From Balanoglossus misakiensis (taxonomy: Eukaryota; Animalia; Hemichordata), in assembly GCA_040954595.2 (NCBI GenBank), contig CM082585.2:12204341-12268340 (forward strand): 64,000 nt of DNA. Direction: 5' to 3'. The position numbers and the translations under genes are program-made. This document shows positions 20,658 through 52,600 of the stretch, one piece after another (the first letter of the stretch is position 1; every line of letters starts with the position of its first letter). Below the pieces are notes generated by a model. The model searched no databases, was not told the origin of the DNA, and worked only from the letters and a program-made list of their open reading frames with translations.

Positions 20658-23600
20658 ATGTCGCTTTTTCGCACTCTACGAGTTTCTCAGGCGCTGCTTG
20701 GCCAGTATAGGCAACGAGTCGTTTTGTTCCGGACTCTAGGAGCCCTCTCGGCGTTGCAGTATGTCCATCCTCAGCTCCAGAATGTCCCACCACCCCAAGT
20801 ACTAGGTCAACCAGACGTTCCTGGTGAGACCTCATTTCTTTCTCGAGCAGTGGTTGTTGTGTAAGCAGAAATGCTTTCTGAGCTTATCTGTTACCCATCA
20901 TAATCTGTGGGGCGAGAACTCTATAGACTTAATTTGTATGTGTGTCGAGATATAATGTCTTGCTTAATCCATTGGAGGTACAGCCTGTGGTACCTCAATA
21001 TTGGGGGGGGGGGGGGGTGTCTATGTTGTCTACTTGTTTTATGTTATTGTTTACCTCCATTTATTGTACCACAAAACACTCCCCCCCCCCTCCCCCTCCA
21101 TCACACACAAAAAAGAACAAGTGTGTCACTCACTGTATGATGATGACCTTGGGTTTATGTTGTCACCATCCTTTTATGCTGAGACCTAGTTTCAGTGAAT
21201 TTCAAGCTACAACTACAGCCAGAATGGAGGTAGGTGTCCCTACCTCCATTTTGGTTTATAAACAGGCACAGGCTACACCAAGCTGAATAAATTATGGCAT
21301 AGATTACATAATAGTATATGTAACAGTCTGCTAAATTTGGGCTAACTCGGTGTTAGCCCATTGTTAGCCAATTAGGGAAAAGGTATCTGTGCTATTACTG
21401 TGCAATCTTGCTCCTAGAAAATGCAAATTGACGTAACATTTTCAATGCCTAGATCTTTGCGAACAATACCAGCGATGGATGTCCACAGAAACTGTCGATC
21501 CGGATGCGGCATCCGTAGACTATGAAGGATTATTGGCTCTATTGGAGTCTGGTGATATACAACTCATTGATGTCAGGGAACCAGAGGAATTAGAAGAGTG
21601 TGGTCAAATAGAGAAAGCCTTCAACATCCCGTGTAAGTTTTAATATTCATTATTTTACAGTGTTAGTGGTCAGTGTTACAGCATGCCTTAGAAATGCAGT
21701 TTGTTTGTAGACTCTGGTTTTGTTCTAATATTAGTGGCAAGTTATTGTGGTCCATGTACATGTGGGTAAGCTTCACCCATGTTGCATTGTTGATGATCAG
21801 ATCACTGTCCTATCAAATATAAACCTGATAGCATTTCTGAGTACAGTGGCCCACTCAAATACAGCTTGTAAATGTAGTCAGTACAGCTTCTTCATTTTGG
21901 TGCATTCCAAAATGATGTCATGAAAATATTCAAATTATTCCCATATATGTACATGTCATATGAGTTTCACTGTTGCAACTGACATGGTACAGTAGATTTT
22001 AGTAATTAGAGCAATAAATACATCTCTTCAAGTGATTTCAAAACATCAGATTAATATCAAAAATTGACTAGTCAGTCTTTAAAAGCAAACATTGCACACG
22101 CTTTCATATAACTTATAGTTATGTAATATTTATCTGTCATCTGAGAAGAGAAACTCACAATCGAATAAGTTGCACCAACTGATTTCAACATTTCAACCTT
22201 TATATTTTCACTTATAATATTTCATGACCACAAACATTCTTTCTCTCAGTGTCACAAAAGCTAATCTCAAGTACTCCTACAAGAAAACGAGAAAGTCGCA
22301 GAATCTTGTTTCAGTGTCAACACCCAAACCCTGCTTGTCTGTTTCTTGCATGGCTTTGTTGGAAAATTCAGCGCAGTGTACAAAATATTTGTTTCGGTAT
22401 TTTCTTTGCATGAATTTTTTTAAAATGCTGATTTGTCTACTATCACTGATGTCCGACGCACCATCCCATATCACCATGGCAACAGAAAGAGTACCGGAAC
22501 ATGTTAATGGGCGCATCACTATCTATAAGCCATCCATTTCTCCCTTTCAGTGAGTCATCTTACTCAGAGTCTGAACATGACAGAAGCTAACTTCATTGAG
22601 CACATGGGTCGAGAAAAGCCCATGAAATGGGATAACAATGTAGTTTTCTACGGTAAAGGGCCAATCAAAAGTCGAGCTGCCATGGAACTGGCCAAAAAAC
22701 TAGGCTATGCAAAGTAAGTCGGAAGTTTTGACAGTGCACCAGAGATGTTAGGATCATAGGATGAACAAACAACTGTCAACATTTTCCATTGAACAACAAG
22801 CTGTCAAAATTACTGACATGAACACTTGGCCAGCCATGTCAGTGGGGTAGCTTAGCCCACAGCATAAAGAGAATACCGCGCTGCGCAAGTAAAAGACGTT
22901 GCCATACTCTACATCTGATTTTAATCTGATTGCATTTATGTAAAAAAAAATCTGATTACTAAAATCTACTGGACATAGGTCAGTTGACAACATTGCAACA
23001 TTGTAGACACTTTGTATTAGCTGCATGTTGTTATAGCCAATGAGAATTGACAAAAATCTATCGAGATCTTTGCTGTGTCTACTCAGTAGTGACACTGTGT
23101 TTCTGTTCATTCTTATGCCACACACTTTGTTCATTGCATCACCAATGAAGAGCTTTGTAAGAATGCACCCATTAATCTCAGATTTTGTTTGTATTCACAA
23201 AGTTGGATCATTTGACCATTATGTCAGGATAACATCTACACAGTCCTCATAATAGTACGAAAATACAATAATCTATTAATATAATGTGTACCCTTACACT
23301 CTCCATGATATTAGACCAATGTTACATTAGACCATTATATTGCAATTATACTAGTCTTTATATTTGGATAACATCTTCATGCTCCAACAGTGTTGCACTG
23401 TCGCTGCCCAACATTTTAGGAGAATGTCTTCTTTATTAGGGATATTTACTTGGTTTAAACATCATATAATGTCTACATTAATTTGGATAATGTTACATTT
23501 GCCCATGTTGTTGAGATAAAGCTGTCAGTACTGTTAGATGTTGACATTGTGCAATCCTATGATTCTACACCTCTGTCTGTTTAATTATAAATAAATCATT

Positions 23601-24311
23601 TTATCTATTTTCTTCTGAATGTTATTTTTAGTAGGGGAAGTTGAGACAGCCCTGGACATGGATCCTGAACGGTTTCGTGAGGCATACAAGTTTGCAATGC
23701 CCAAACATTCAGATGCAAACATTGTGTTCACTTGTCTGGGTGGCATTCGCAGTGCTAAGGCACTGGGAACAGCTATTAGTCTGGGTTATGATAAGTATGT
23801 ATTCTGCAATGTTCAATTGAAATCTCAACTTCCTGGCTGGCTAATTTCACTCAAACATGCATTAAATGGAAGTAATATGTTGTTTTAAACTGTTTTAAAT
23901 CTGGCCATGAGGTTGTGATTTCAATAAAATGTTATCTCCTGTTAGTTCGGGTTGTTTTCTTAACACTAAACTCTTCTTCAGTGTTTGCTGAACATTCTTA
24001 TGTGATCTTAGCTCTTGAAAAAATGATTTTGATTTCAGATCCAATTGTGCAGCATGAAAGTTGTGATATTGTGACTTACTTCTGTCTCTTGTATTCAAAT
24101 TCTCAATTTATGCTTGTATCTGAAATCTTACTGAATGGGAACTTTTATTCTCTCAATTGAGCAGAGTTCTGACTCTCTTCAGGATATCCTAATAACGATA
24201 TTTTCTGTTCCCTTTCCCCTTTTTGTGTTCTCCAGAGCACGGCATTATCCAGGAGGCTGGGAAGAATGGACTGAGAAACAAGGACTACCACTCACGAAGA
24301 CCGAGTTGTAG
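20658..24311 (+). CDS. Single-domain rhodanese / thiosulfate sulfurtransferase-like protein (TSTD1/TSTD3 type) with two alternative third exons
   Basis: Exons 20658-20823 (Arg/Ser/Leu-rich, acid-free N-terminus resembling a mitochondrial presequence), 21453-21632 (LIDVREPEE..GQI..AFNIP), 22551-22713 or 23632-23794, and 24236-24311 (HYPGGWEEW, stop TAG). All junction phases fit. Confidence 0.9.
22551..22713 (+). CDS. Rhodanese alternative exon 3a (Cys-less active-site loop)
   Basis: Acceptor ccctttcag, donor AA|gtaagt, 163 nt, open frame (L)SHLTQSLNMTEANFIEHMGREKPMKWDNNVVFYGKGPIKSRAAMELAKKLGYA(K); aligns to exon 3b without gaps. Confidence 0.85.
23632..23794 (+). CDS. Rhodanese alternative exon 3b (catalytic Cys loop)
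   Basis: Acceptor tttttag (tandem tagTAG), donor AA|gtatgt, 163 nt, (L)GEVETALDMDPERFREAYKFAMPKHSDANIVFTCLGGIRSAKALGTAISLGYD(K); canonical CxxGxRS loop. Confidence 0.92.
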
Positions 24312-26831: not shown

Positions 26832-27542
26832 TTAGTTCAGCATACACGATTCGTACGTAGGTACCATATATTTGATGTTGATGAACGCATCTTCGCCTCC
26901 TTGTCTTTCGAATGCTTCTAGCGTTTCTTGGATAAGATCGCCAATGTTTTCCCTCTTTTGTTGACTGTAGTCGATGCCATCGCCAGAGTTGAGGTTGTTG
27001 TTCTTGAAGATATTTAGGATGGGAAGAATCTGCCTGTAGTATGGAACCAAAGCTTCGCCCACCATTTCTGCTGAGACGACCAGGTGCTGAAGAACTTTCA
27101 GTGTTGTGCACAGGACCTTTCTATTCCTCGTACTGAGCGCACTCTTGATGGGAATGATAAGTTGAGGAATGACTGGTAGGATCTTGGAACCGCCATGCTC
27201 CAGCATGTCGTGAACACCTTGGCGTGCGAAGAACTCGTATGGATGTGATGTTTCACAGAGCCCGTCGTAAAACAGCGGCAGATAATGGTGGTAATCCAAC
27301 TTCTCTATCTCTACCTTCCATGCGATCTTGTTACCCTTGGTGTCGTGCTCAAGAGCAATCGGAAAATCGCCACGTTCGTAGAACTTCCTAAACGCTGTTG
27401 GATGGGCTGGTCGTTCCTTGAACGCGCCAGCTTCCGGAGGCGTCTTAACTTTTGCGTTCTTCAATCGTGATTTCGTCGAAAAACCTTCAGCACTTATCGC
27501 CTTCGATTGACGACTTTTCGTCTGGCTTGTTGCAAGAGACAT
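26832..27542 (-). CDS. PACRG: Parkin co-regulated gene protein (axonemal inner-junction protein), intronless CDS
   Basis: 236-aa uninterrupted ORF with [54 protein letters not shown] and [19 protein letters not shown]. Confidence 0.97.
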
Positions 27543-27679
27543 TTTCCTGAGAGATGTGACTGCGATCTTCGAAATTCAGCAGGAAAATCGGCGTTAGTAA
27601 CCACTGCAACGAGAGTTTGTGTTGTTCTGTGAAGCTAATGGAGAAGGTTCTGATTGTTGGTGTCATAACAGTGACGTCG

Positions 27680-32720: not shown

Positions 32721-33922
32721 CCATCATCATCACCGTCTTAAGACTACATGACCCAACCAGCAGGCCAGGTCATGGATATACTTACACATCAAAAAGGAAG
32801 AACAAAGAGAGAACCCAGGTGTGTGATCGTCCAATCATAAACATACACAGTGCTGCACAAACTTTGAAGTAAAACGACATCAGGATTAATTTATATGATC
32901 CAAATCTTTCCACCAAACCACTACCCAGGAGAACCAATACCTTGGATTTCAAAAGAAAAAGAAAAATAGACATTAAAATTATTAAATTCTGTAAAGTGCA
33001 CAGCATTATGAAAAAAAAAAATGTTTCATCTTACCTGAGGTACAATGAAAGATGAACCATACAGAAACTTTCTCAAATATGAGGGCAAGTCTTCCTGTGG
33101 TATCAAGGCATCTCCGAATATGGCCAGAAAGTTACTGCAGAAAGCAAGGTGAAACACTTGACAGAAGTTCATGACAACGAAGAAAATAAAGTTTTTCTGG
33201 GTGACAATCTGCCATGTTAGGGTCCATAGGCTGGTATTGACAATTCGTTCATCGTCATGTTTTTTCTTTCCGTTAGTCGATTTCAAATCCACCTTGTAAT
33301 GTGTTTTCACATTTCGACCAGTATAACACATGCACAAACAACTAAGAAATGCTATTCCGATGCAATAACACTGAAATGCAAAACGATTTTCCAGACTATT
33401 AGACACCATCTCTGCCCACAGCACGGCACTCGAGCCAATGACTGAAGCTACTTGACTGTATCTGACCAATCGTAATCGTTCGTCGTGTTGTTGTGACATT
33501 TCTGTGAAGCTTGCACACTGTGCCAGCAAGACAAATGTAAACAAGGTGTCATAGCAACAAAGACTGACAAGCAGATGCACACCAATCATCCAATGATCTG
33601 GTACGTAGTGTTCCCATGGAAACCATGGCAGCAGGAAACTAAAAGCATAGAATGGTGCTCCATAAAGGATGGACAAGCGTCTCTCATGAAAAATTGCCAG
33701 TTTGGAATTATCTTGAATGTATCCAAATAAGGGATCATTGATAGCATTCCACACAAGATACAATATCTGTGTTGTTTGAAACCACTGCTGGCTGATCTTG
33801 TAATGATTCAAGAATAACTTGACGTAGTAGAACTGGAAAACAGAATTCATCATGGTGGATGCTAGAGTTGTTGCACAAAATGCCAGGGCATTCCAGTGGA
33901 TTTGAGGTCCAAAGCCAACCAT
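31973..33922 (-). CDS. MFSD13A: MFS-type membrane protein TMEM180 / MFSD13A
   Basis: Exons 33922-33035, 32940-32786, 32549-32466, 32252-31973. Motifs FYYVKLFL, WNAINDPLFG, YGAPFYAFSFLLPWFPW, FGTNALFTKPAQSIAPM. Probable non-coding first exon with a donor near 34355. Confidence 0.9.
32594..32733. repeat. (CAT)n trinucleotide microsatellite in an MFSD13A intron
   Basis: About 140 bp of CAT repeats with CAC/CTT interruptions; it produces the spurious poly-His and poly-Ile ORFs. Confidence 0.97.
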
Positions 33923-35043
33923 GGTGATCGATGTCTTCTTGGTGTTACCTGCAGTGCAGAAATCAAATGTGCCGTATCTTATAACTGCAACTGCACATCT
34001 ATGTATAGAGCACTCGTCAATAAATTTGACATTAAATATTGGCAACTTTTTTTTCTGAGAAATTGGGGCCGGGGGGTAAAAATTTGATTACATGTAACCA
34101 TGGAGATTAAAAAAACCTCGGCAAGTGTCTTAGGCTAATGATCGGAGAAAAGTGCAAACAACCGCACACACATGCACACTCTTCAATCTGAATCACAAAA
34201 TGCGGTACTTTTTGGGGGGGGGGGAGTGAGGAGACATCGTCGTAAACAACGACCTCTTTACGGCATCAGTTTCTGAGTTTCCAGGTGGGCGGTGGACCCG
34301 GGAAGGGTGGAGGGTGTTATGGCAGTCTCTGCGGCAAGTATTCATTTTCACGTACCTTTCTCGATGTAAAACACAGAAGGACCACAGGCACTTTATAAGT
34401 AGAGTCACGGTTTATACTAGAAGCTCTCTTTGAGTGCGTGATCTATGTGAAATCTTTAAACGTGACACGATGACAAAGTTGTGCAGTCAGCTGTCATGGT
34501 CAGCTGTGGAGCGCCACTTACGGTCATATCACGTTTTCGTTTTCTTTTCTTTTTCGCGTACTTAAAAGCTTCATCGAAATCGACATTGCTTTCTCTCACT
34601 AATTATACAAGCATTCACAAAAGAAGTGGGGGAAATGAAACACGTAAATGGGTATAAAGGGTCAAAGCAATCATTTCCCTGTGTTAAGTAAAACTATTAT
34701 CCCTTGTCACAATAGTTACATGTAGTCAGATTTATCGACAAAGTTTCAAGTTCTTTGGTTTTACATTAACAAAGGATTTACTTCATTTTAATTTTGTACG
34801 GCTTTGGCAATTGTTCAATCATATCTACTAATAGTAGACATAACGCTTGTTCAGAGGAATTTCCCTCTACCAGAGTTTTAAGCAAAATTTCAAGCTTCAT
34901 GCACGTACATGTATCAGAACATTGTTTATTGTTATATTGTTTATGTGCATGACGTCATCCATAATGTGCAGTACACTTAGTGTATAAAGTGTGTTCTCTC
35001 CGCCATCACTGAGTAGATTGAATATCACGCTTACAAGGACTTT

Positions 35044-42782: not shown

Positions 42783-45388
42783 ATGGCCGATGCACCGCTC
42801 GTTGTCCGACTCGTCGCCGCCTCCGTGGCTATCGCCGACAAGGCTGGGTTGATTGTCCGTGAAATCATGAAGAAAGGCGACCTAGGAGTCGTGGAGAAAA
42901 CGGTAAGTCCGTAAAACCCGTACACAGCCCATGAACTCGTGCAGATGGACCGTGTCCATCATGTCGGGGCGGTTCGGCGCACCTCACGGGTGTTGCTTTT
43001 CTAGTGGTTTTATGCGAGTAAAACTTGGTAGAGAACTTGGTAGTGAGGTCAGTCCGTCCTTGGCATTTAGAGGTTCTTCGTATGATTAGATTTTGACTAA
43101 TTTCTTGAGGCATGGGCGTGTCTTTGACTTACTAGTAGTTGTGACCTTTGACACTTGTCAAAACAGCCACCGTACACTTTCGCACATGGTAACGTACGTG
43201 TACATGTGTCGATTGGTTCATGCAAACATTGTAACAATTTATCGACATTTACATCTTTTGGAGAATTGCAAATTTAGTTTTGCGTCTGTTCTGTGACCAC
43301 AAACAGGTGAGAAGCCCGTACTTGACCACAATTTATAAAAAACATGCCATACTTTTGGAGTTTAATCAAATCATTTGAACCAATAAACCCACATATGATG
43401 ATATGTTAACCTTTGGCTTCTTGCTACGGGTTAAGTACCATGTATTGTACGGTCATACTGGTATATTTCTATCACTATGAAAGACTTTAATGCTCAGAGC
43501 AAAATAAGTGTGAATATGTTCCCCTTGAGTTTCTTTACCCTGCATATACTATACAGGGAAGGTGACTGGAAGTTTCAGATAGATGAACTTTGACATATAT
43601 TATGCAAATAAGCACCAGGAATGACCTTTTTTTGTTCTGTTCCACAGGGCATTCAAGATTTGCAGACTCAGGCTGACAGAACTGTTCAGATGAGCATTTC
43701 CACATCCATATCACGTCTTTTTCCTGGAGTCTGTGTTGTTGGTGAAGAGGTAAGACGAGACAGTTAAATTTAACCCTTTCACCGCAATGGTTCAGTCCAA
43801 ACCCATTGTTTCCTATGGTAAAGTTGGACCTCTATAGAGGAAACTAGGGGTGAAAGGATTAAACTCGTCATAAAACGCGGGTCAGAGACAGAAATGACAG
43901 TTGATGAGATCACTGATGACATACACGTAGTAGTACATGATAAAAACTGTTTGATCAATAATAATCTGATTTAATTTCGCAGGACGATGATCAGCCTGAA
44001 GTAGACGAGAAGTATGTTTACAGTGACATGTCTCAGGACGTGTTGAAGTATGCTGATAAATGCCCTGATAAGTACAAGACTGTAAAACCAGAACAGGTGA
44101 GCTGGAAATATTGTGAAAATGTCATTTCAGTGCATCCTTTGGAAACAGTTGTGTTCAGTCGTATAACTGTAAATTATTCACATTGAAATCTTCTGGGAAC
44201 ATCGACCAGTCAGAACTGTTCCAGCTTATTCAAATTTATCAAGGAGCATTTATCAAGTAATTTTGTTCGCACAGTTGATGCAAGCCAAGGTGAGCCTGTA
44301 GACATGATTCATTTTATAATTTCATAATCTCATTTTTCTGATTTCTAGGTCGTTGTCTGGATTGATCCACTGGATGGTACCAAGGAATACACTGAAGGTG
44401 AGGACAAGATTAAACTGCCTTGACTGCTGCTTTATGTCTCATCAACGGACCAGATCAGAGAGAAATCAAAGGTCTGAGAAAACAATTTTGAATTCGTATA
44501 TGTTGTCTTGTAACCCCAATTATTTGTGCTTGTATCTGATAGGCTTGCTTGATCATGTGACTGTTCTGATTGGTGTTGCCGTTGACGGCCAGAGCGTGGC
44601 TGGGGTCATCCACCAACCATACTTCAACTACAAAGCCGGCAAGGATGCCAAACTTGGCCGTACAATCTGGGGTATCATTGGAGTCGGTTCCTTTGGCTTG
44701 TCTGAGAAGAAAGAACTGCCCAAAGACAAAACCATCATCACCACAACTCGCTCCCATCCAACAAAAACCGTTCAGGAAGCCATTGATGCATTCAAACCTG
44801 ATGAAGTCATTCGTGTTGGTGGGTGTGGTCACAAGGTATGTAAAGGGAACCTGTCTAGACCAATCGTCGAGAGAATTTGACAATTTCATCTTGAGTCACA
44901 CAAACACTTTTCATTTTCATTATTTCAGGTTTTGATTGTCCTTGAAGGCGAGGCTCACGTGTATCTATTCGCCAGCCCTGGATGTAAGAAGTGGGACACA
45001 TGTGGTCCACAGGCCATTTTGGAAGCCATTGGAGGTAAGAATTCAAAACCATTGGATACAGCTGTTGTCATGGATACATGGGAACTACAAGTTACACGTC
45101 TATGTCAGATTTATCAACTTCATCTGTTGCCCAGCAACAAGGAAACAATGGTACACCACAAGAAATGATATGTGCTACAAGTTCAAAATGCTTTGGAGTA
45201 TGTTCCTGACTTTGTTTACAATGTTTCTGTTTATTGCAGGGCGACTCACAGATATCCATGGCAACGTCTTGCAGTACCACAAGGATGTGAAGAAACCCAA
45301 CAGTGGTGGCGTGCTAGCAACAATCTCAAACCATGATTACTACCTCAAAAATATTCCCCAGGGAATCAAAGACCAACTGAAGGCTTGA
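42783..45388 (+). CDS. BPNT1: 3'(2'),5'-bisphosphate nucleotidase 1
   Basis: Exons approx. 42783-42902, 43648-43749, 43983-44096, 44349-44397, 44543-44835, 44929-45033, 45240-45388. Motifs [39 protein letters not shown]. Confidence 0.96.
43770..43862. mobile_element. piggyBac-like miniature element (TTAA-flanked, CCCTTTCACC termini)
   Basis: TTAA-CCCTTTCACC...GGTGAAAGGA-TTAA. Partial copies at 1879-1916 and 53171-53221, and a diverged relative at about 55-108. Confidence 0.7.
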
Positions 45389-46411: not shown

Positions 46412-47286
46412 ATTATATTATGCCAGTATATTGAAACTTTGCATAAAACATTTTAAAAAGGCATTTTCTTTGACTATGATATATGACTGTGGTATATGGC
46501 TAATATATCACGGTCACATGTCGTGTCTCGACCAATCAAATAGCTTGATTTACACCATCAATATACTGGTATAATATAAATTGTGATAATGAACAGCACG
46601 TGAGGGCGCACAACAACTGAAATATTTGACCAATATATTTGCTCAAGAAATTCTTTCGAGCGAAGGTCGGAAAAGTCGGTAATGGCATGGCATGTATGTC
46701 GACTATTATTTGTCTATTTCGGGCATTTCACGGTCATCCATCTTTCCTTGACAGTAAGGCACTTGTGCCTGCCACGCCCCCGCCCCCACCATTCTGTGAA
46801 AGCTACCTAGAAATAAATTAAGTTCTCAACATGAAATAATTGATGTAAACGAATTAAGATCACAGCTGTCCGGCGAACGAGCCAAATAAGGGACTCTGGG
46901 CGTACACTTCTTGGACAAATTGTCAAAACAGTCTGGGATACGGATTTAGATCAGGGAGACGTGCTGGTATTTCGTTCGATGCATCATGTTTATGACGTCA
47001 CGTCGTCATCCACGGCTGGTTTTTGCCAGTTCCAGGGCTGTGTAAATATTGTAAAACTTGTGACGGGCTGTAGTGTTCCTGGCTTTATCTATCAGCATAA
47101 TCTAGTTTGAGAGACAGGTATGTATTTTGTTAAGTTGGCACGTTTAAAAGTTCCAATCACCCCAACTTCGTTAATCATCCACCAGCTAGTATCTAAGCTA
47201 AACCACGATTCTACCATTCTCTCCCTATTAACAGCTTTTCAGGCTTGTTATATTCGCACACATTCTGTTGCAGTCCATTCTATGCC

Positions 47287-48210
47287 ATGGAGTTCATTGA
47301 TGCGCATTTTCATATTTGGGACACTTCAGATTCGGCACGGACCGGTCAGTCCACCGACTTCCTCGGTATCAGTGGCAACGCCATACCTGTCTACACGGTA
47401 GAAAAGTATAGAGAAGATCTGAAAGAAGTCACTGGTATGAAATGTAAGGGCTGCGTCTGGGTCGAGTGTTTGTCAACGATTCCGCTCGCTGAAGCCTCCT
47501 GGGCGTCCGGCGAGTGCTTGAAATTGCTTTCCGGTGCCGTCGGCGACTTTAGGATCGTTGCCAGGTGCGATCTTTCGGATGAGGATGTGAAGAAGCGTTT
47601 GCGGCGACTCAGCACGGTGTCTGATCTGTGCGGAATCCGCCAGATATTAAACCACCACCCGACAGACCCCAAGCAAATTTATCCTATGGTCGAGCGTGAC
47701 AACTACATGCAAGATGAAGACTGGTTGCATGGATATGGTTTACTGGGGGATTTTGGATTGAGCTTTGACCTACAAGTCAATTCTCACCAACTTGAAGAGT
47801 TTGCCGAGGTGGTCAAGAAATATCCGCAGACCAAAGTCGTCATTGACCACCTGGGAATGCTCAACCTCAAGGAGCCCTCTGGCGTTGACACCTGGCGAAA
47901 AGGCATGCAAGCATTGGCTCAATATCCCAACGCATTCGTGAAAATTTCGATGCTTGATTATATCATACCTGGCTGGATCCGAGACAGCGCTTCTCGCCGA
48001 GAGGTGAAAGGTTATGTTCGCGAGGTCATAGACTTGTTTGGCGCTGATAGATGTATGTTTGGTTCAAACTTCCCCGTTGAGAAGGCTTCTGGCTATTCCA
48101 TGGGCGACCTTTATGACGCGTACAAGGAATTTGTCTCCGATCTTGATGATGAGAGTAAACGTCGCCTTTTCGTTGATACTGCAGCCCGGTTTTACAAATT
48201 TGTTGAATAG
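47287..48210 (+). CDS. Amidohydrolase_2 family TIM-barrel hydrolase (COG3618-like sugar lactonase type), intronless CDS
   Basis: 307 aa from ATG 47287 (gccATGG). Motifs IDAHFHIWD, GIRQ, SFDLQV, VIDHLG, VKIS, RCMFGSNFPV, TAARFY. Probable 5' UTR intron 47118-47273. Confidence 0.9.
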   Translation: MEFIDAHFHIWDTSDSARTGQSTDFLGISGNAIPVYTVEKYREDLKEVTGMKCKGCVWVECLSTIPLAEASWASGECLKLLSGAVGDFRIVARCDLSDEDVKKRLRRLSTVSDLCGIRQILNHHPTDPKQIYPMVERDNYMQDEDWLHGYGLLGDFGLSFDLQVNSHQLEEFAEVVKKYPQTKVVIDHLGMLNLKEPSGVDTWRKGMQALAQYPNAFVKISMLDYIIPGWIRDSASRREVKGYVREVIDLFGADRCMFGSNFPVEKASGYSMGDLYDAYKEFVSDLDDESKRRLFVDTAARFYKFVE

Positions 48211-49687: not shown

Positions 49688-52600
49688 ATGGCTGCAAGCA
49701 CACGATCTCGGTCTTCATACCACAGCTCTAAGACAAAACGAAGCATCGTGAATGAAGATGACAGGTTTGTTTGTTTGATGATATCCATTAAATTGATAAG
49801 CGTTTATTTTTTATTTAATTGATACAAATGATTTGATATAAAATCTTCTTAACGTCGCATTTACGCTTCCTTAAATTGTTGTCCTTCGCGCATATTCATT
49901 GGCGCAAGGCCCTGTACTGTTTTCGTCTGCTGCTTACATTTCTGACGTCATGGTAGCGTTCGCCAGAAACGACACAGCTGATAAAAAATAACGAAACTAG
50001 GCTTAACGCATATTTATGCAAAATTCTGCTAAGTGGTACGGAGGAAAACATTTTGCATCATTCGTTTGTCGCGTCTTCTAGTGCAGTACCCCATTTACCA
50101 ATTATGTATTGGTGGCCACTAGGGGGCGCTAATAGGGAATGGGTTTTACATGTATTTACATCAACTGTACAGATCACCACGAGTGATTGACACCAGTCAA
50201 TTGCAATGTTGGACGCCCAAAGCACAGACAGCCTTCAAACTGCTGATATCAGCCAGATTCACAGCAGCTTTACTCAGCAATATATCGGACTGTGATGAAA
50301 CATTCAACTATTGGGAACCGGTGAGTATAAGCTATGCTGTTTGTAAACACAAGCTCTGAGATTATGAGGAGCATGATGAAATTAAAAAACACAGACATAT
50401 ATTTTAACATTTGATGGACAATTTAAATGATGAATATTATTCCATTTTGAGAAAAAGTTAGTTACATTGTATTACAATTTTTTTGCAGACCCATTTTCTT
50501 CAATATGGCGCTGGTTTTCAGACCTGGGAATATTCCCCTGTTTATGCAATCCGTTCATATGCATATGTTATGCTTCATCTGTTGCCGGCAAAACTTCATG
50601 CAAATGTATTCCAAGCAAATAAGGTGAGTCAAGTACATGTATCATTATCAACAAACAAACAACATATCACATACAATATGATTCCAAAATGAAGTTTTAG
50701 TTGTTACCGTAATTGATGTTGCCAGTGTAAAATGAGAGTGTCTGAAAGTATCGGCAAAATAACTGTAATTCCTCAGGAACCTTCATAATCAATTCATTTA
50801 GTCAATTGTGACACATACAGTTAGCTGAAATGTTTTCATACAATTTGTTTTTCCAGATTTTAGTGTTTTACTTTGTACGGTGTATTCTGGGATTTCTATG
50901 CGCCCTTAGTGAGCTCTACTTTTACAAGTAAGTACTTTGTCTCAGAACATGATTGTTTCATATACTCTCAATAATCTCACAAATACCTGGTTTACATGTA
51001 ATTGTCTAAACAGATTAGTGTGCTGTCACAATGCACTAAATGTATTGATCGTTGTTATCTTTCTTTTTATCAGAGGAGTTTGTCGACTGTTTGGTGGAAA
51101 TGTTGGACGTCTAACTTTGTTTTGTCTGGTAATGAGTACTGGTATGTTCATCTCAGCAGCTGGTAAGTGACACAGACAGAGAATGCCAGTACAAACTTGA
51201 CATCATTAAAAAGAATTTGACTTCCCTTTTCTACACCACACAGATACAGGTCTTCAGGTCTGCTAATCCAACACTCGTATATACAAGTTAAATTCCTGAT
51301 TATTTTTGTTTTATTCTTTGTTCAGCATTTCTTCCAAGCAGTTTTTCAATGTACATGACACTGTTAGCAATGGGTGCCTGGTACACAGACAATATTGCGG
51401 TAAGTCATTCAATCAGAAAACGAGAAATCATCTCTACCTATATGACATTATGTGATAACTTCATTTCAACTTCCAACCTCTCAATGTTGCTTAAGTCTTT
51501 TCTGGTTTTATTTTTCAAACTTCTCAGATATCTGTTCTCAGTATTGCCAGCAGTGCAATCCTTGGTTGGCCATTTGCAGGAGCCATTGGGTAAGAAGAAG
51601 TTCTCATATCTCACAACTGTTTTTGGCTGTTTTTCAAATACAGATTCTTGAAAATTCTTAGTCAAACATGTACATTTAATTTCTTATTTTCCATAGAATC
51701 CCAATTGCTGTTGACTTTGTTCTGAGAAGACATGAAATCTGGCAGTTCATCAAATGGTGTGTTATCGCCTTGCTGGTTATACTGGTGAGTAATGTTCCTG
51801 ACTTTCTCACTGTTTTACCATTTCTATCGGCTGTGATCTGACTTGACTGACATATAGGTGTGACGTGTGCCCTCAGGCATCAGAACAGTGAACATATCTC
51901 TTCTTTCTTTATTATTTCTCAGGTGCCTGTTGTCGCGATAGACTCATATTACTACGGCAAGCTTGTCGTAGCACCATTGAACATTGTTCTGTACAATGTA
52001 TTCAGTGAACATGGACCAGATCTTTATGGTAAGAAAATGGGATATCTCAGAATTTATACATTCTCTTGAGGTCGTTGTTGCTTATTTTTATCTCTCACAA
52101 CATATATGTTATTCATGTCTGTTATGACTCAGTCGCATGCACGGATACGGAAACATGCCATGTGAACAGTCAAGATGTTGTTAGAATGTTCTAAAGCATC
52201 CTCATACAACAAGTTATAGTAACATATGACAAAAATCAACGAAACAAGTGACACATCTGCAATATGGCGGCCATATTAGTATATGCTACACTTGATGGCT
52301 AATAATTTGTGTTCTTTCCTTCACAGGAGTTGAACCATGGACCTATTATTTCATCAATGGATTTCTGAACTTCAATGTTGCCTTTGTCTTTGCCTTGGTG
52401 GCTGTCCCAGCAGCTGTTAGTTTGGTTTTTCTTTACTCATCTACTCTCCATTCTCCTTCACTGTTACCTATGGCACAGTGGTACTGTTGAAGTCTTATGA
52501 GATGCAGTTGAAACAAGTGCTTATGCACAGATTATGCACAGTTTCAAACAAATATTTAATGTTGGAACAAATGCGTGTTTCTTTCATTATTTCCTGTTAC

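What the first reader, a model, noticed from the sequence alone, without database searches (positions are those of the whole stretch)
21453..24311. Mutually exclusive exons toggle a rhodanese between catalytic enzyme and Cys-less pseudoenzyme
Seen: exons 22551-22713 (3a) and 23632-23794 (3b) are both exactly 163 nt, both phase 1-to-2, both have strong splice sites and open frames, and they align without gaps (L.M....F.E......P...D.N.VF...G.I.S..A...A..LGY). Because 163 is not a multiple of 3, including both or neither shifts the frame, so only one-of-two transcripts are productive. At the catalytic position 3b has TGT (VFTCLGGIRS) and 3a has GGT (VFYGKGPIKS). Known: rhodanese catalysis needs the persulfide-carrying Cys at the start of this loop, and Cys-less rhodanese domains act as regulatory or interaction modules. 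Inference: despite deep nucleotide divergence, 3a keeps its frame, length and hydrophobic core, so it is under selection. One gene would make an active sulfurtransferase and a dead twin with the same presequence and C-terminus, a possible splice switch in mitochondrial sulfur metabolism. I do not know of a description of this, but cannot check the literature.
Basis: partly seen in the sequence, partly recalled or inferred. Interest (0 to 1): 0.9.

Follow-up and report, generated by a model that had tools for sequence, protein, structure and literature searches.

The report
Exon swap removes rhodanese catalytic cysteine
This gene for a small sulfur-transfer enzyme, likely from an acorn worm, carries two interchangeable copies of one exon, one with and one without the catalytic cysteine, so it likely makes both a working enzyme and a non-catalytic twin, and that twin belongs to a conserved, apparently unstudied protein group found in many invertebrate animals.

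Summary
Observation confirmed. Exons 3a (22551-22713) and 3b (23632-23794) are both 163 nt, in the same phases, open and homologous (17/53 aa). They put Gly or Cys at the rhodanese catalytic position. A spliced contig from this organism's sample joins exons 1-2-3b-4; no 3a transcript was seen. NCBI models of Ptychodera flava (three isoforms) and Glandiceps talaboti (two) differ only in this cassette, and an amphioxus model holds both cassettes in the same order. Exon 3a is more conserved than 3b (44/53 against 38/53 to P. flava). It falls in one Cys-less clade (44 rows, support 96/93) spanning hemichordates, amphioxus, a crinoid, molluscs, an annelid, a nemertean, flukes, nematodes and arthropods. 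One unnamed animal has a gene with the Gly exon alone. So 3a is better read as an old protein with its own job, likely a non-catalytic binder, than as a dead copy. A single-copy intronic stem that would loop out 3a is a lead for the switch. Activity, partner and regulation are untested. The scan noted the same switch earlier in another genome (e1-7514523). No paper on it was found. Verdict: new variant of a known kind.

The parts
20658..20823 (+). Exon 1 (coding part): ATG, Arg-rich presequence-like N-terminus
   Evidence: Joint 20822>21452, read with cut +1, GT..AG, in an X3 contig; 83% identical to the P. flava N-terminus over 36 aa; R+K 5, D+E 0 in 35 aa
21453..21632 (+). Exon 2: first half of the rhodanese domain with the DxR motif
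   Evidence: Pfam Rhodanese E=1.7e-5; spliced on both sides in X3
21964..22010 (+). Arm A1 of a long-range stem that would loop out exon 3a
   Evidence: Best inverted match of the whole window within 3 kb (score 50, next 39); 0 of 200 shuffles reach it; single-copy by DNA depth
22551..22713 (+). Exon 3a, Cys-less cassette (loop YGKGPIKS; GGT at 22652-22654)
   Evidence: 163 nt, phase 1-2, open; 44/53 aa identical to P. flava X2 and 39/53 to G. talaboti X2; inside the Cys-less clade
22740..22782 (+). Arm B1 of a weaker stem inside the 3a-3b intron, starting 26 nt after the 3a donor
   Evidence: not above background in two of the controls
22867..22932 (.). Short high-copy genomic repeat inside the 3a-3b intron
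   Evidence: Contig depth of 24,000-47,000 in this bin against 45-185 around it
22951..22999 (+). Arm A2, partner of A1
   Evidence: Duplex -52 kcal/mol; pairing probability near 1 for most positions in the fold of 21900-23650
23538..23575 (+). Arm B2, ending 9 nt before a TTAAT branch-point-like A of exon 3b
   Evidence: the branch point is a motif match only
23632..23794 (+). Exon 3b, catalytic cassette (loop TCLGGIRS; TGT at 23733-23735)
   Evidence: Joints 21632>23632 and 23794>24236 in an X3 contig; 38/53 aa identical to P. flava X1
24236..24311 (+). Exon 4, coding part up to the TAG stop; the 3' UTR follows
   Evidence: Spliced in X3, whose contig runs on to at least 24800; 85% identical to the P. 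flava C-terminus

Best explanation
This is a TSTD1/TSTD3-type single-domain rhodanese gene with a tandemly duplicated third exon: exon 3b (Cys) is spliced in to give a likely active sulfurtransferase, and exon 3a (Gly) is likely spliced in instead to give a same-length, predicted same-fold, predicted non-catalytic protein that likely acts as a binding or regulatory module in mitochondria. Shown: the exon anatomy, splicing of 3b, conservation of both cassettes in two named acorn worms and amphioxus, and membership of 3a in an old Cys-less clade. Inferred: use of 3a in this species; loss of catalysis, since no Cys is left in the loop and the loop Gly and Arg are changed too; mitochondrial import; and a binding role through clade-specific residues (Lys -30, Lys +5, Glu +11, His +14, counted from the catalytic position), most likely on a partner of mitochondrial sulfide or persulfide handling. 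One-of-two output is enforced at least by frame: both exons give an early stop that would trigger decay, and neither gives a half domain. It is possibly also set by RNA folding. Stem A would loop out 3a and make 3b the default. If intron 2 is spliced to 3a first, stem B could form and bring the 3a donor within about 35 nt of the 3b branch point, blocking the 3a-3b joint.
For: Anatomy and chance control. Spliced contig 1-2-3b-4 with three GT..AG joints. P. flava X1/X2/X3 and G. talaboti X1/X2 are identical outside residues 115-167. B. lanceolatum CAH1250189.1 carries the Gly cassette then the Cys cassette, and a Branchiostoma 'isoform X2' has the same exon 2 (98%) with the Cys cassette alone. 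3a is more conserved than 3b: 44 against 38 of 53 to P. flava, 39 against 34 to G. talaboti. With the catalytic column removed, 44 of 46 non-Cys cassettes form one clade among 121 rows (96/93). The grouping largely survives removal of the whole loop (4 changes against 37 shuffled). The loop is remodelled: +3 is Gly in 89/89 Cys rows but mostly P/S/H/A in the 43 clade rows, and +5 is Arg in 86/89 against Lys in 31/43. Clade-specific residues: Lys -30 in 37/43 against 12/89, Glu +11 in 38/43 against 20/89. No column holds Cys in more than 5 of 43 clade rows. Both P. flava forms are predicted with the same fold at pLDDT above 89 in the domain; the Gly form lies 1.0 A from TSTD1. The review PMC10135228 defines Rhd domains without the loop Cys as inactive and calls them protein-interaction mediators. 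Stem A.
Against: No read or contig shows 3a spliced in this organism. The one spliced contig skips it, and it comes from the sample that may be the source of the DNA. The isoforms in relatives are automatic gene models whose RNA support I could not see, and the amphioxus model joins both cassettes in one chain, probably wrongly. No assay exists. Loop-free support for the clade is weak by bootstrap (27/96, with three other rows inside). The hit list was collected with a Gly-form query and is enriched for it. The acorn-worm 3a forms themselves lack two of the clade's residues or have them variably (window: Thr at -30, Lys at +14). Stem B is not exceptional: score 53 against a median of 43.5 in 138 tiles with G-U allowed, and 1 of 12 control tiles has more long-range pairs. 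With G-U allowed, stem A ranks 5th of 124 plus-strand tiles. Neither stem could be checked for conservation. No partner was identified.
Confidence: 0.72

Rival explanations
1. 3a is a dominant-negative decoy: it keeps the enzyme's surfaces and titrates the Cys form, its substrate or thioredoxin, so splicing simply turns activity down.
For: Same presequence, exon 2 and exon 4, and the same predicted fold. Lys +5 and Ser +6 could still hold an anion. TSTD1 hands sulfur to thioredoxin (PMC10135228).
Against: The loop is remodelled beyond the Cys, and the clade has its own conserved residues. In L003 the Gly exon is the only exon 3, so its gene has no twin enzyme.
Confidence: 0.12
2. The Gly form has an unrelated mitochondrial job, such as a structural subunit or an RNA- or anion-binding protein, with no link to sulfur metabolism. 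The gene only shares an import signal and a half domain between two proteins.
For: A rhodanese-domain protein, mS67, is a subunit of trypanosomatid mitoribosomes. The clade's conserved residues are largely basic. A stand-alone Gly gene exists (L003).
Against: mS67 is only 18-20% identical and ranks below TSTD1 and RDL2; whether it lacks Cys was not checked. There is no direct evidence for any partner.
Confidence: 0.1
3. In this species 3a is a silent relic, and the isoforms in relatives are prediction artefacts or pieces of a nested second gene.
For: The only spliced contig skips 3a. Stem A is predicted to hide 3a almost completely. RNA support for the NCBI models was not seen.
Against: 3a keeps its length, frame, both splice sites and 83% identity to P. 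flava, more than 3b (72%) or the exon-2 core (76%). tblastn of the P. flava protein finds no second exon 2 or exon 4 in the window.
Confidence: 0.06

Closest known systems
Human TSTD1 (PDB 6BEV) and yeast RDL1/RDL2: single-domain rhodanese sulfurtransferases
   Same: Best PDB match by sequence (E=6e-13) and by fold (rmsd 1.0 A); DxR motif; Cx4R loop in the 3b form; TSTD1 also has four exons (PMC10135228).
   Different: TSTD1's inactive isoforms are truncations (exon 2 skipped, or intron 3 kept), not a homologous exon swap. Here there is a long presequence-like N-terminus and a full-length Cys-less isoform.
TSTD3-like proteins (a Branchiostoma protein so named by NCBI, P0235; unnamed rows P0089, P0070 and P0055, which I take from memory to be vertebrate TSTD3)
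   Same: The CL[AG]G[VI]RS loop; P0055 and P0089 are the nearest non-hemichordate rows to 3b in the cassette tree.
   Different: No named vertebrate row fell in the Cys-less clade. Most rows are unnamed, so absence is not shown.
Ptychodera flava isoforms X1/X2/X3 (X2 = XP_070538145.1) and Glandiceps talaboti X1/X2 (X2 = XP_077987968.1)
   Same: Orthologous gene with the same cassette swap.
   Different: P. flava has a third, Cys-type cassette (CRRGNRS) with no trace in this window. The Gly isoforms are named as ordinary sulfurtransferase-like or rhodanese proteins, with no note of the lost Cys.
Catalytically inactive rhodanese domains (classes 2 and 4 of PMC10135228; the N-terminal domain of TST/MPST and the domains in MAPK phosphatases are recalled examples)
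   Same: No loop Cys; thought to mediate protein interactions.
   Different: Those are fused to an active rhodanese or to another domain. A stand-alone inactive single domain is not among the review's four classes.
Homologous mutually exclusive exons that change enzyme function (PMC7954323: PKM1/2, PFKP, nine events touching catalytic residues such as fly CG42249; macroH2A1.1/1.2 and KHK-A/C are recalled)
   Same: Tandem exon duplication, fold kept, functional site altered.
   Different: 'Rhodanese' does not occur in that paper's main text. Here the swap removes the catalytic nucleophile itself, and the Cys-less cassette also lives as the only exon 3 of a gene in another animal.

Membership tests
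Single-domain rhodanese sulfurtransferase (TSTD1/TSTD3 type) | Rhodanese fold as the only domain | tested here: met
   Pfam PF00581 on the window's exons (exon 2 above the cut-off, 3a and 3b below it as fragments). Models of the P. flava orthologous isoforms, not of the window's own proteins; the Gly-form model matches 6BEV.
Single-domain rhodanese sulfurtransferase (TSTD1/TSTD3 type) | DxR motif at the end of strand beta-1 | tested here: met
   DVRE in exon 2; feature as defined in PMC10135228.
Single-domain rhodanese sulfurtransferase (TSTD1/TSTD3 type) | Cx4R/T catalytic loop, 3b isoform | tested here: met
   CLGGIR.
Single-domain rhodanese sulfurtransferase (TSTD1/TSTD3 type) | Cx4R/T catalytic loop, 3a isoform | tested here: not met
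   GKGPIK; the Gly aligns with the TSTD1 Cys. The only Cys residues of this isoform are two in exon 2, and the one inside the domain is not kept in P. flava.
Single-domain rhodanese sulfurtransferase (TSTD1/TSTD3 type) | Sulfur transfer from thiosulfate to GSH, cyanide or thioredoxin | not testable with these tools
   Needs an assay.
Tandem-duplicated homologous mutually exclusive exons | Adjacent homologous exons of equal length and phase | tested here: met
Tandem-duplicated homologous mutually exclusive exons | Each exon is found in transcripts | tested here: inconclusive
   3b: yes. 3a: only as NCBI isoform models in two relatives.
Tandem-duplicated homologous mutually exclusive exons | Never both, never neither, in stable mRNA | not testable with these tools
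   Only contigs were available. Frame logic predicts early stops.
Tandem-duplicated homologous mutually exclusive exons | Pair conserved in other species | tested here: met
   P. flava, G. talaboti and Branchiostoma. Not universal: L003 has the Gly exon only.
Inactive rhodanese domains (classes 2 and 4) | No Cys in the loop | tested here: met
   3a isoform.
Inactive rhodanese domains (classes 2 and 4) | Fused to an active rhodanese or to another domain | tested here: not met
   The 194-aa isoform is a presequence-like region plus one domain.
Exon choice by competing RNA pairings (Dscam1, ATE1 type) | Long-range intronic complementarity around the variable exons | tested here: inconclusive
   Stem A is above chance in Watson-Crick controls and less so with G-U allowed. 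Stem B is within background in two controls.
Exon choice by competing RNA pairings (Dscam1, ATE1 type) | One docking element shared by competing selectors | tested here: not met
   Each arm has one clear partner; the next best is 17-21 kcal/mol weaker for the three arms B2, A1 and A2, and 13 weaker for B1. The two stems cross each other instead of sharing an arm.
Exon choice by competing RNA pairings (Dscam1, ATE1 type) | Conservation and compensatory changes across species | not testable with these tools
   No intron DNA of a related animal could be fetched.

The most novel reading that the evidence does not exclude
The bilaterian ancestor had one mitochondrial rhodanese gene with an enzyme exon and a pseudoenzyme exon. 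Acorn worms and amphioxus (and, by an earlier unchecked note, a ribbon worm) still switch between them by splicing, here through two crossing RNA stems. Other lineages kept the pseudoenzyme as its own gene, and vertebrates lost it. The Cys-less protein is an unrecognised regulator or sensor of mitochondrial sulfide and persulfide handling across invertebrates, and the switch answers to sulfide or oxygen.
Probability: 0.25. Interest if true: 0.8.

Novelty: new variant of a known kind. Interest (0 to 1): 0.62.

Why it matters
It points to an old, conserved family of stand-alone Cys-less rhodaneses in many invertebrate phyla that databases name as working sulfurtransferases. It also gives a clean natural pair: two proteins identical except for one 55-residue cassette, with and without the nucleophile. 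That makes the question of what inactive rhodanese domains do directly testable. It adds a deep case of an enzyme/pseudoenzyme switch by exon duplication, with a further Cys-type exon in P. flava that may change substrate preference.

Tried and rejected
No whole genome is held for this window, and no intron DNA of relatives could be fetched, so dN/dS and stem conservation were not computed. Run search: no RNA holder listed. X3 is recorded as 'DNA?'; I read it as RNA because its contig joins three GT..AG introns and covers the exons only. X3 has no contig over 3a at 90% or 80% likeness; contigs drop rare variants, so this shows nothing about absence. The X2 joint going back from 23664 to 23206 has GATC on both sides and is rejected as a likely proximity-ligation artefact, not a duplication. 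A third exon like P. flava X3: none in the window by tblastn or blastn. U12-type sites, or a short intron forcing exclusion: rejected, as all donors are GTRAG or GTATG and the 3a-3b intron is 918 nt. Ancestral exon pair against ancient paralogous genes later merged: the tree of exons 2+4 scatters the Cys-less rows (19 changes), but the AU test does not reject their monophyly (p=0.32; 109 rows, 53 columns, acorn worms and 14 other proteins left out), so this is unresolved. 'Isoform' labels alone are no evidence: the Gordionus isoforms seen are one full-length Gly form and two truncations. The word-based protein search is insensitive: only 7 of its 15 query rows came back, so missing Cys partners for scallops, ticks or Tubulanus mean nothing. 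The Gly in the first domain of the Watersipora protein is outside the clade, so probably a separate loss. The metagenome scan gave 23 loci, of which 4 were looked at and only L003 was informative. The Atlas search returned only rhodanese clusters. NCBIfam gave nothing above cut-off. Bordo and Bork 2002, Libiad 2018 and Melideo 2014 are not held and were not read.
Full report
Observation. 22551-22713 (3a) and 23632-23794 (3b) are each 163 nt, flanked by AG and GT, in phase 1 to 2, and open. They share 17/53 residues and 70/163 bases without gaps (BLASTP E=2e-7). Among 127,682 ungapped 53-codon windows on both strands, 3a scores 54 against 3b and the next best scores 11. GGT in 3a and TGT in 3b lie 101 nt into their exons. 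The orthologous Gly aligns with the catalytic Cys of human TSTD1. With exon 1 (20658-20823), both forms are 194 aa. Including both exons stops 150 nt before the last junction; including neither stops at the junction after 115 aa.

Transcript evidence. Three runs of one sample hold the DNA. One of them, X3, is recorded as 'DNA?' but gives a 1,394-nt contig that joins 20823>21453, 21632>23632 and 23794>24236 at GT..AG ends. I infer that it is RNA. It shows the Cys form spliced with 3a skipped, and it does not tell whether the Gly form is made. The sample may be the source of the window, so this is a second kind of evidence and not a second study.

Relatives. The best match of 3a is Ptychodera flava XP_070538145.1, isoform X2 (85%), so the organism is likely an acorn worm. 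P. flava has three 192-aa isoforms and Glandiceps talaboti two 190-aa isoforms, which differ only within residues 115-167, the cassette. In both species X2 has Gly and X1 has Cys; P. flava X3 is a second Cys cassette that this window lacks. The Branchiostoma lanceolatum model CAH1250189.1 holds a Gly cassette followed by a Cys cassette, and a Branchiostoma isoform X2 has nearly the same exon 2 with the Cys cassette alone. These are automatic models, and I could not see their RNA support. Selection is clear all the same: 3a is 44/53 identical to P. flava and 39/53 to G. talaboti, 3b is 38/53 and 34/53, and the exon-2 core is 31/41 and 27/41. I confirmed only that Tubulanus X2 has the Gly loop. 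I had reached my reading before seeing that note.

The Cys-less exon is an old lineage. The search of 50%-identity representatives gave 1,282 hits at E<=0.001, of which the best 150 were listed; the alignment search added 88 rows. Of 242 domains with a near-complete cassette, 142 have Cys, 65 Gly, 25 Ser, 7 Ala, 2 His and 1 Trp (the set is redundant and enriched by a Gly query). I dropped near-duplicates, gappy rows and the distant rows P0199-P0234. With the catalytic column removed, 43 of 49 non-Cys cassettes then form one branch among 138 rows (SH-aLRT 99). With 12 multi-domain or long-branch proteins dropped and the window and amphioxus cassettes added, 44 of 46 form one clade among 121 rows (96/93, bootstrap not fully settled). 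Without the whole loop the grouping persists with weak bootstrap (27/96, three other rows inside). Named members: both acorn worms, B. lanceolatum, the crinoid Anneissia, Patella, Argopecten, Dimorphilus, Tubulanus, a Fasciola cluster, Trichinella, Gordionus, Varroa, Dermacentor, the millipede Chamberlinius and krill. No named vertebrate, insect or non-bilaterian is in it, but most rows have no name. Locus L003, from an unnamed animal, has the same intron phases, a 163-nt Gly exon and no Cys exon. The Cys-less protein can therefore be a gene's only product. Whether the exon pair or two separate genes came first is unresolved (AU p=0.32).

What the Gly form is. Both P. flava isoforms are predicted with the same secondary structure and pLDDT 89-98 over the domain, and the Gly form superposes on TSTD1 at 1.0 A. 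The review PMC10135228 (passages; its TSTD1 section in full) defines activity by the Cys of a Cx4R/T loop, calls Cys-less domains interaction mediators, and lists four classes, none of them a stand-alone inactive domain. In the clade the loop is changed at three places: position 0; +3 (Gly in 89/89 Cys rows; Pro 13, Ser 11, His 5, Ala 4 of 43); and +5 (Arg 86/89; Lys 31/43). The clade also conserves residues that Cys forms do not: Lys -30 (37/43 against 12/89), Glu +11 (38/43 against 20/89) and His +14 (25/43 against 13/89). Its loop-and-helix half is more conserved than in Cys rows (52% against 42% mean identity). No substitute Cys is conserved. I infer a non-catalytic protein with its own binding surface. 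The N-termini of five family members have 5-7 basic and no acidic residues in 35 aa, which fits mitochondrial import; no dedicated predictor was run. A partner in mitochondrial sulfide handling is the likeliest guess, because TSTD1 is proposed to work with persulfide dioxygenase and thioredoxin (passages of PMC9163753). It remains a guess.

How one exon is chosen. Frame alone makes only one-of-two products full length. Beyond that, 21964-22010 and 22951-22999 are complementary and enclose 3a (stem A). It is the best inverted match of the window within 3 kb (50 against 39), is reached by 0 of 200 shuffles, is single-copy, and dominates the predicted fold of 21900-23650. With G-U pairs scored it ranks 5th of 124 plus-strand tiles. 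A second pair, 22740-22782 with 23538-23575 (stem B), crosses stem A. It forms in the model only when arm A1 is blocked or intron 2 is gone, and would bring the 3a donor within about 35 nt of a branch-point-like TTAAT of 3b. It passes the shuffle test narrowly (36 against a maximum of 35) but not two tile controls. The model (A hides 3a and makes 3b the default; B blocks 3a-3b once 3a is chosen) is a lead only. It resembles the RNA-pairing control of Dscam1 and ATE1 (PMC11802352, passages) but has no shared docking site.

Comparison with what is known. Homologous mutually exclusive exons are a known kind, and PMC7954323 (passages) lists nine events touching catalytic residues, without any rhodanese in its main text. 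Cys-less rhodanese domains are known inside larger proteins. Human TSTD1 has inactive splice forms, but they are truncations. The three fly single-domain rhodanese genes are discussed without such a switch in the passages seen (PMC12189691). Nine full-text searches (listings and abstract starts only, apart from the papers named) found no description of this exon pair or of the Cys-less clade. The library lacks most subscription papers, three key papers were not held, and no supplements were read. Lists of exon events in supplements, such as those of PMC7954323, could bear on this.

Verdict. The feature is real and conserved, a new variant of a known kind, and was already noted once by this scan on other DNA. 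My odds are about 0.93 that the cassette is truly switched in this gene lineage, 0.9 that the Gly form lacks sulfurtransferase activity, and 0.72 for the whole reading with a binding or regulatory role. Interest 0.62.

Noticed in passing
window 21633-22550 and 22714-23631: The two introns flanking exon 3a are both exactly 918 nt long. Probably coincidence; unexplained.
   Followed up: no
P0172 (P. flava isoform X3): P. flava has a third cassette with a basic loop (CRRGNRS), 32/53 identical to its X1 cassette. One gene may make two enzymes of different specificity plus the Cys-less form.
   Followed up: partly
L003:591-1890: Unnamed animal locus with the same intron phases and a 163-nt Gly exon (1339-1501), and no Cys exon between exons 2 and 4.
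   Followed up: yes
window 22867-22932: Short repeat of about 65 nt with very high copy number in the genome; not identified.
   Followed up: no
window 23816-23925: Local hairpin (22-nt arms, -31.5 kcal/mol) starting 21 nt after the 3b donor.
   Followed up: no
window 26832-27575 (-): Parkin co-regulated protein (PACRG) in one uninterrupted 247-aa frame; looks intronless or retrocopied.
   Followed up: no
window 47197-48210 (+): Amidohydro_2 family protein in one uninterrupted 337-aa frame, unusual among intron-rich neighbours; origin not examined.
   Followed up: no
P0037 (Watersipora) and P0062: Two-domain single-chain rhodanese models. In Watersipora the first domain has lost its Cys independently of the main clade, echoing the inactive-plus-active layout of TST.
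   Followed up: partly
window 33026-34087 (-), 44320-44880 (+), 51292-51651 (+): Neighbouring genes: an MFS_2 transporter, an inositol monophosphatase family member and an Alg9-like mannosyltransferase (below cut-off). No sulfur-pathway neighbour among the 12 frames scanned.
   Followed up: no
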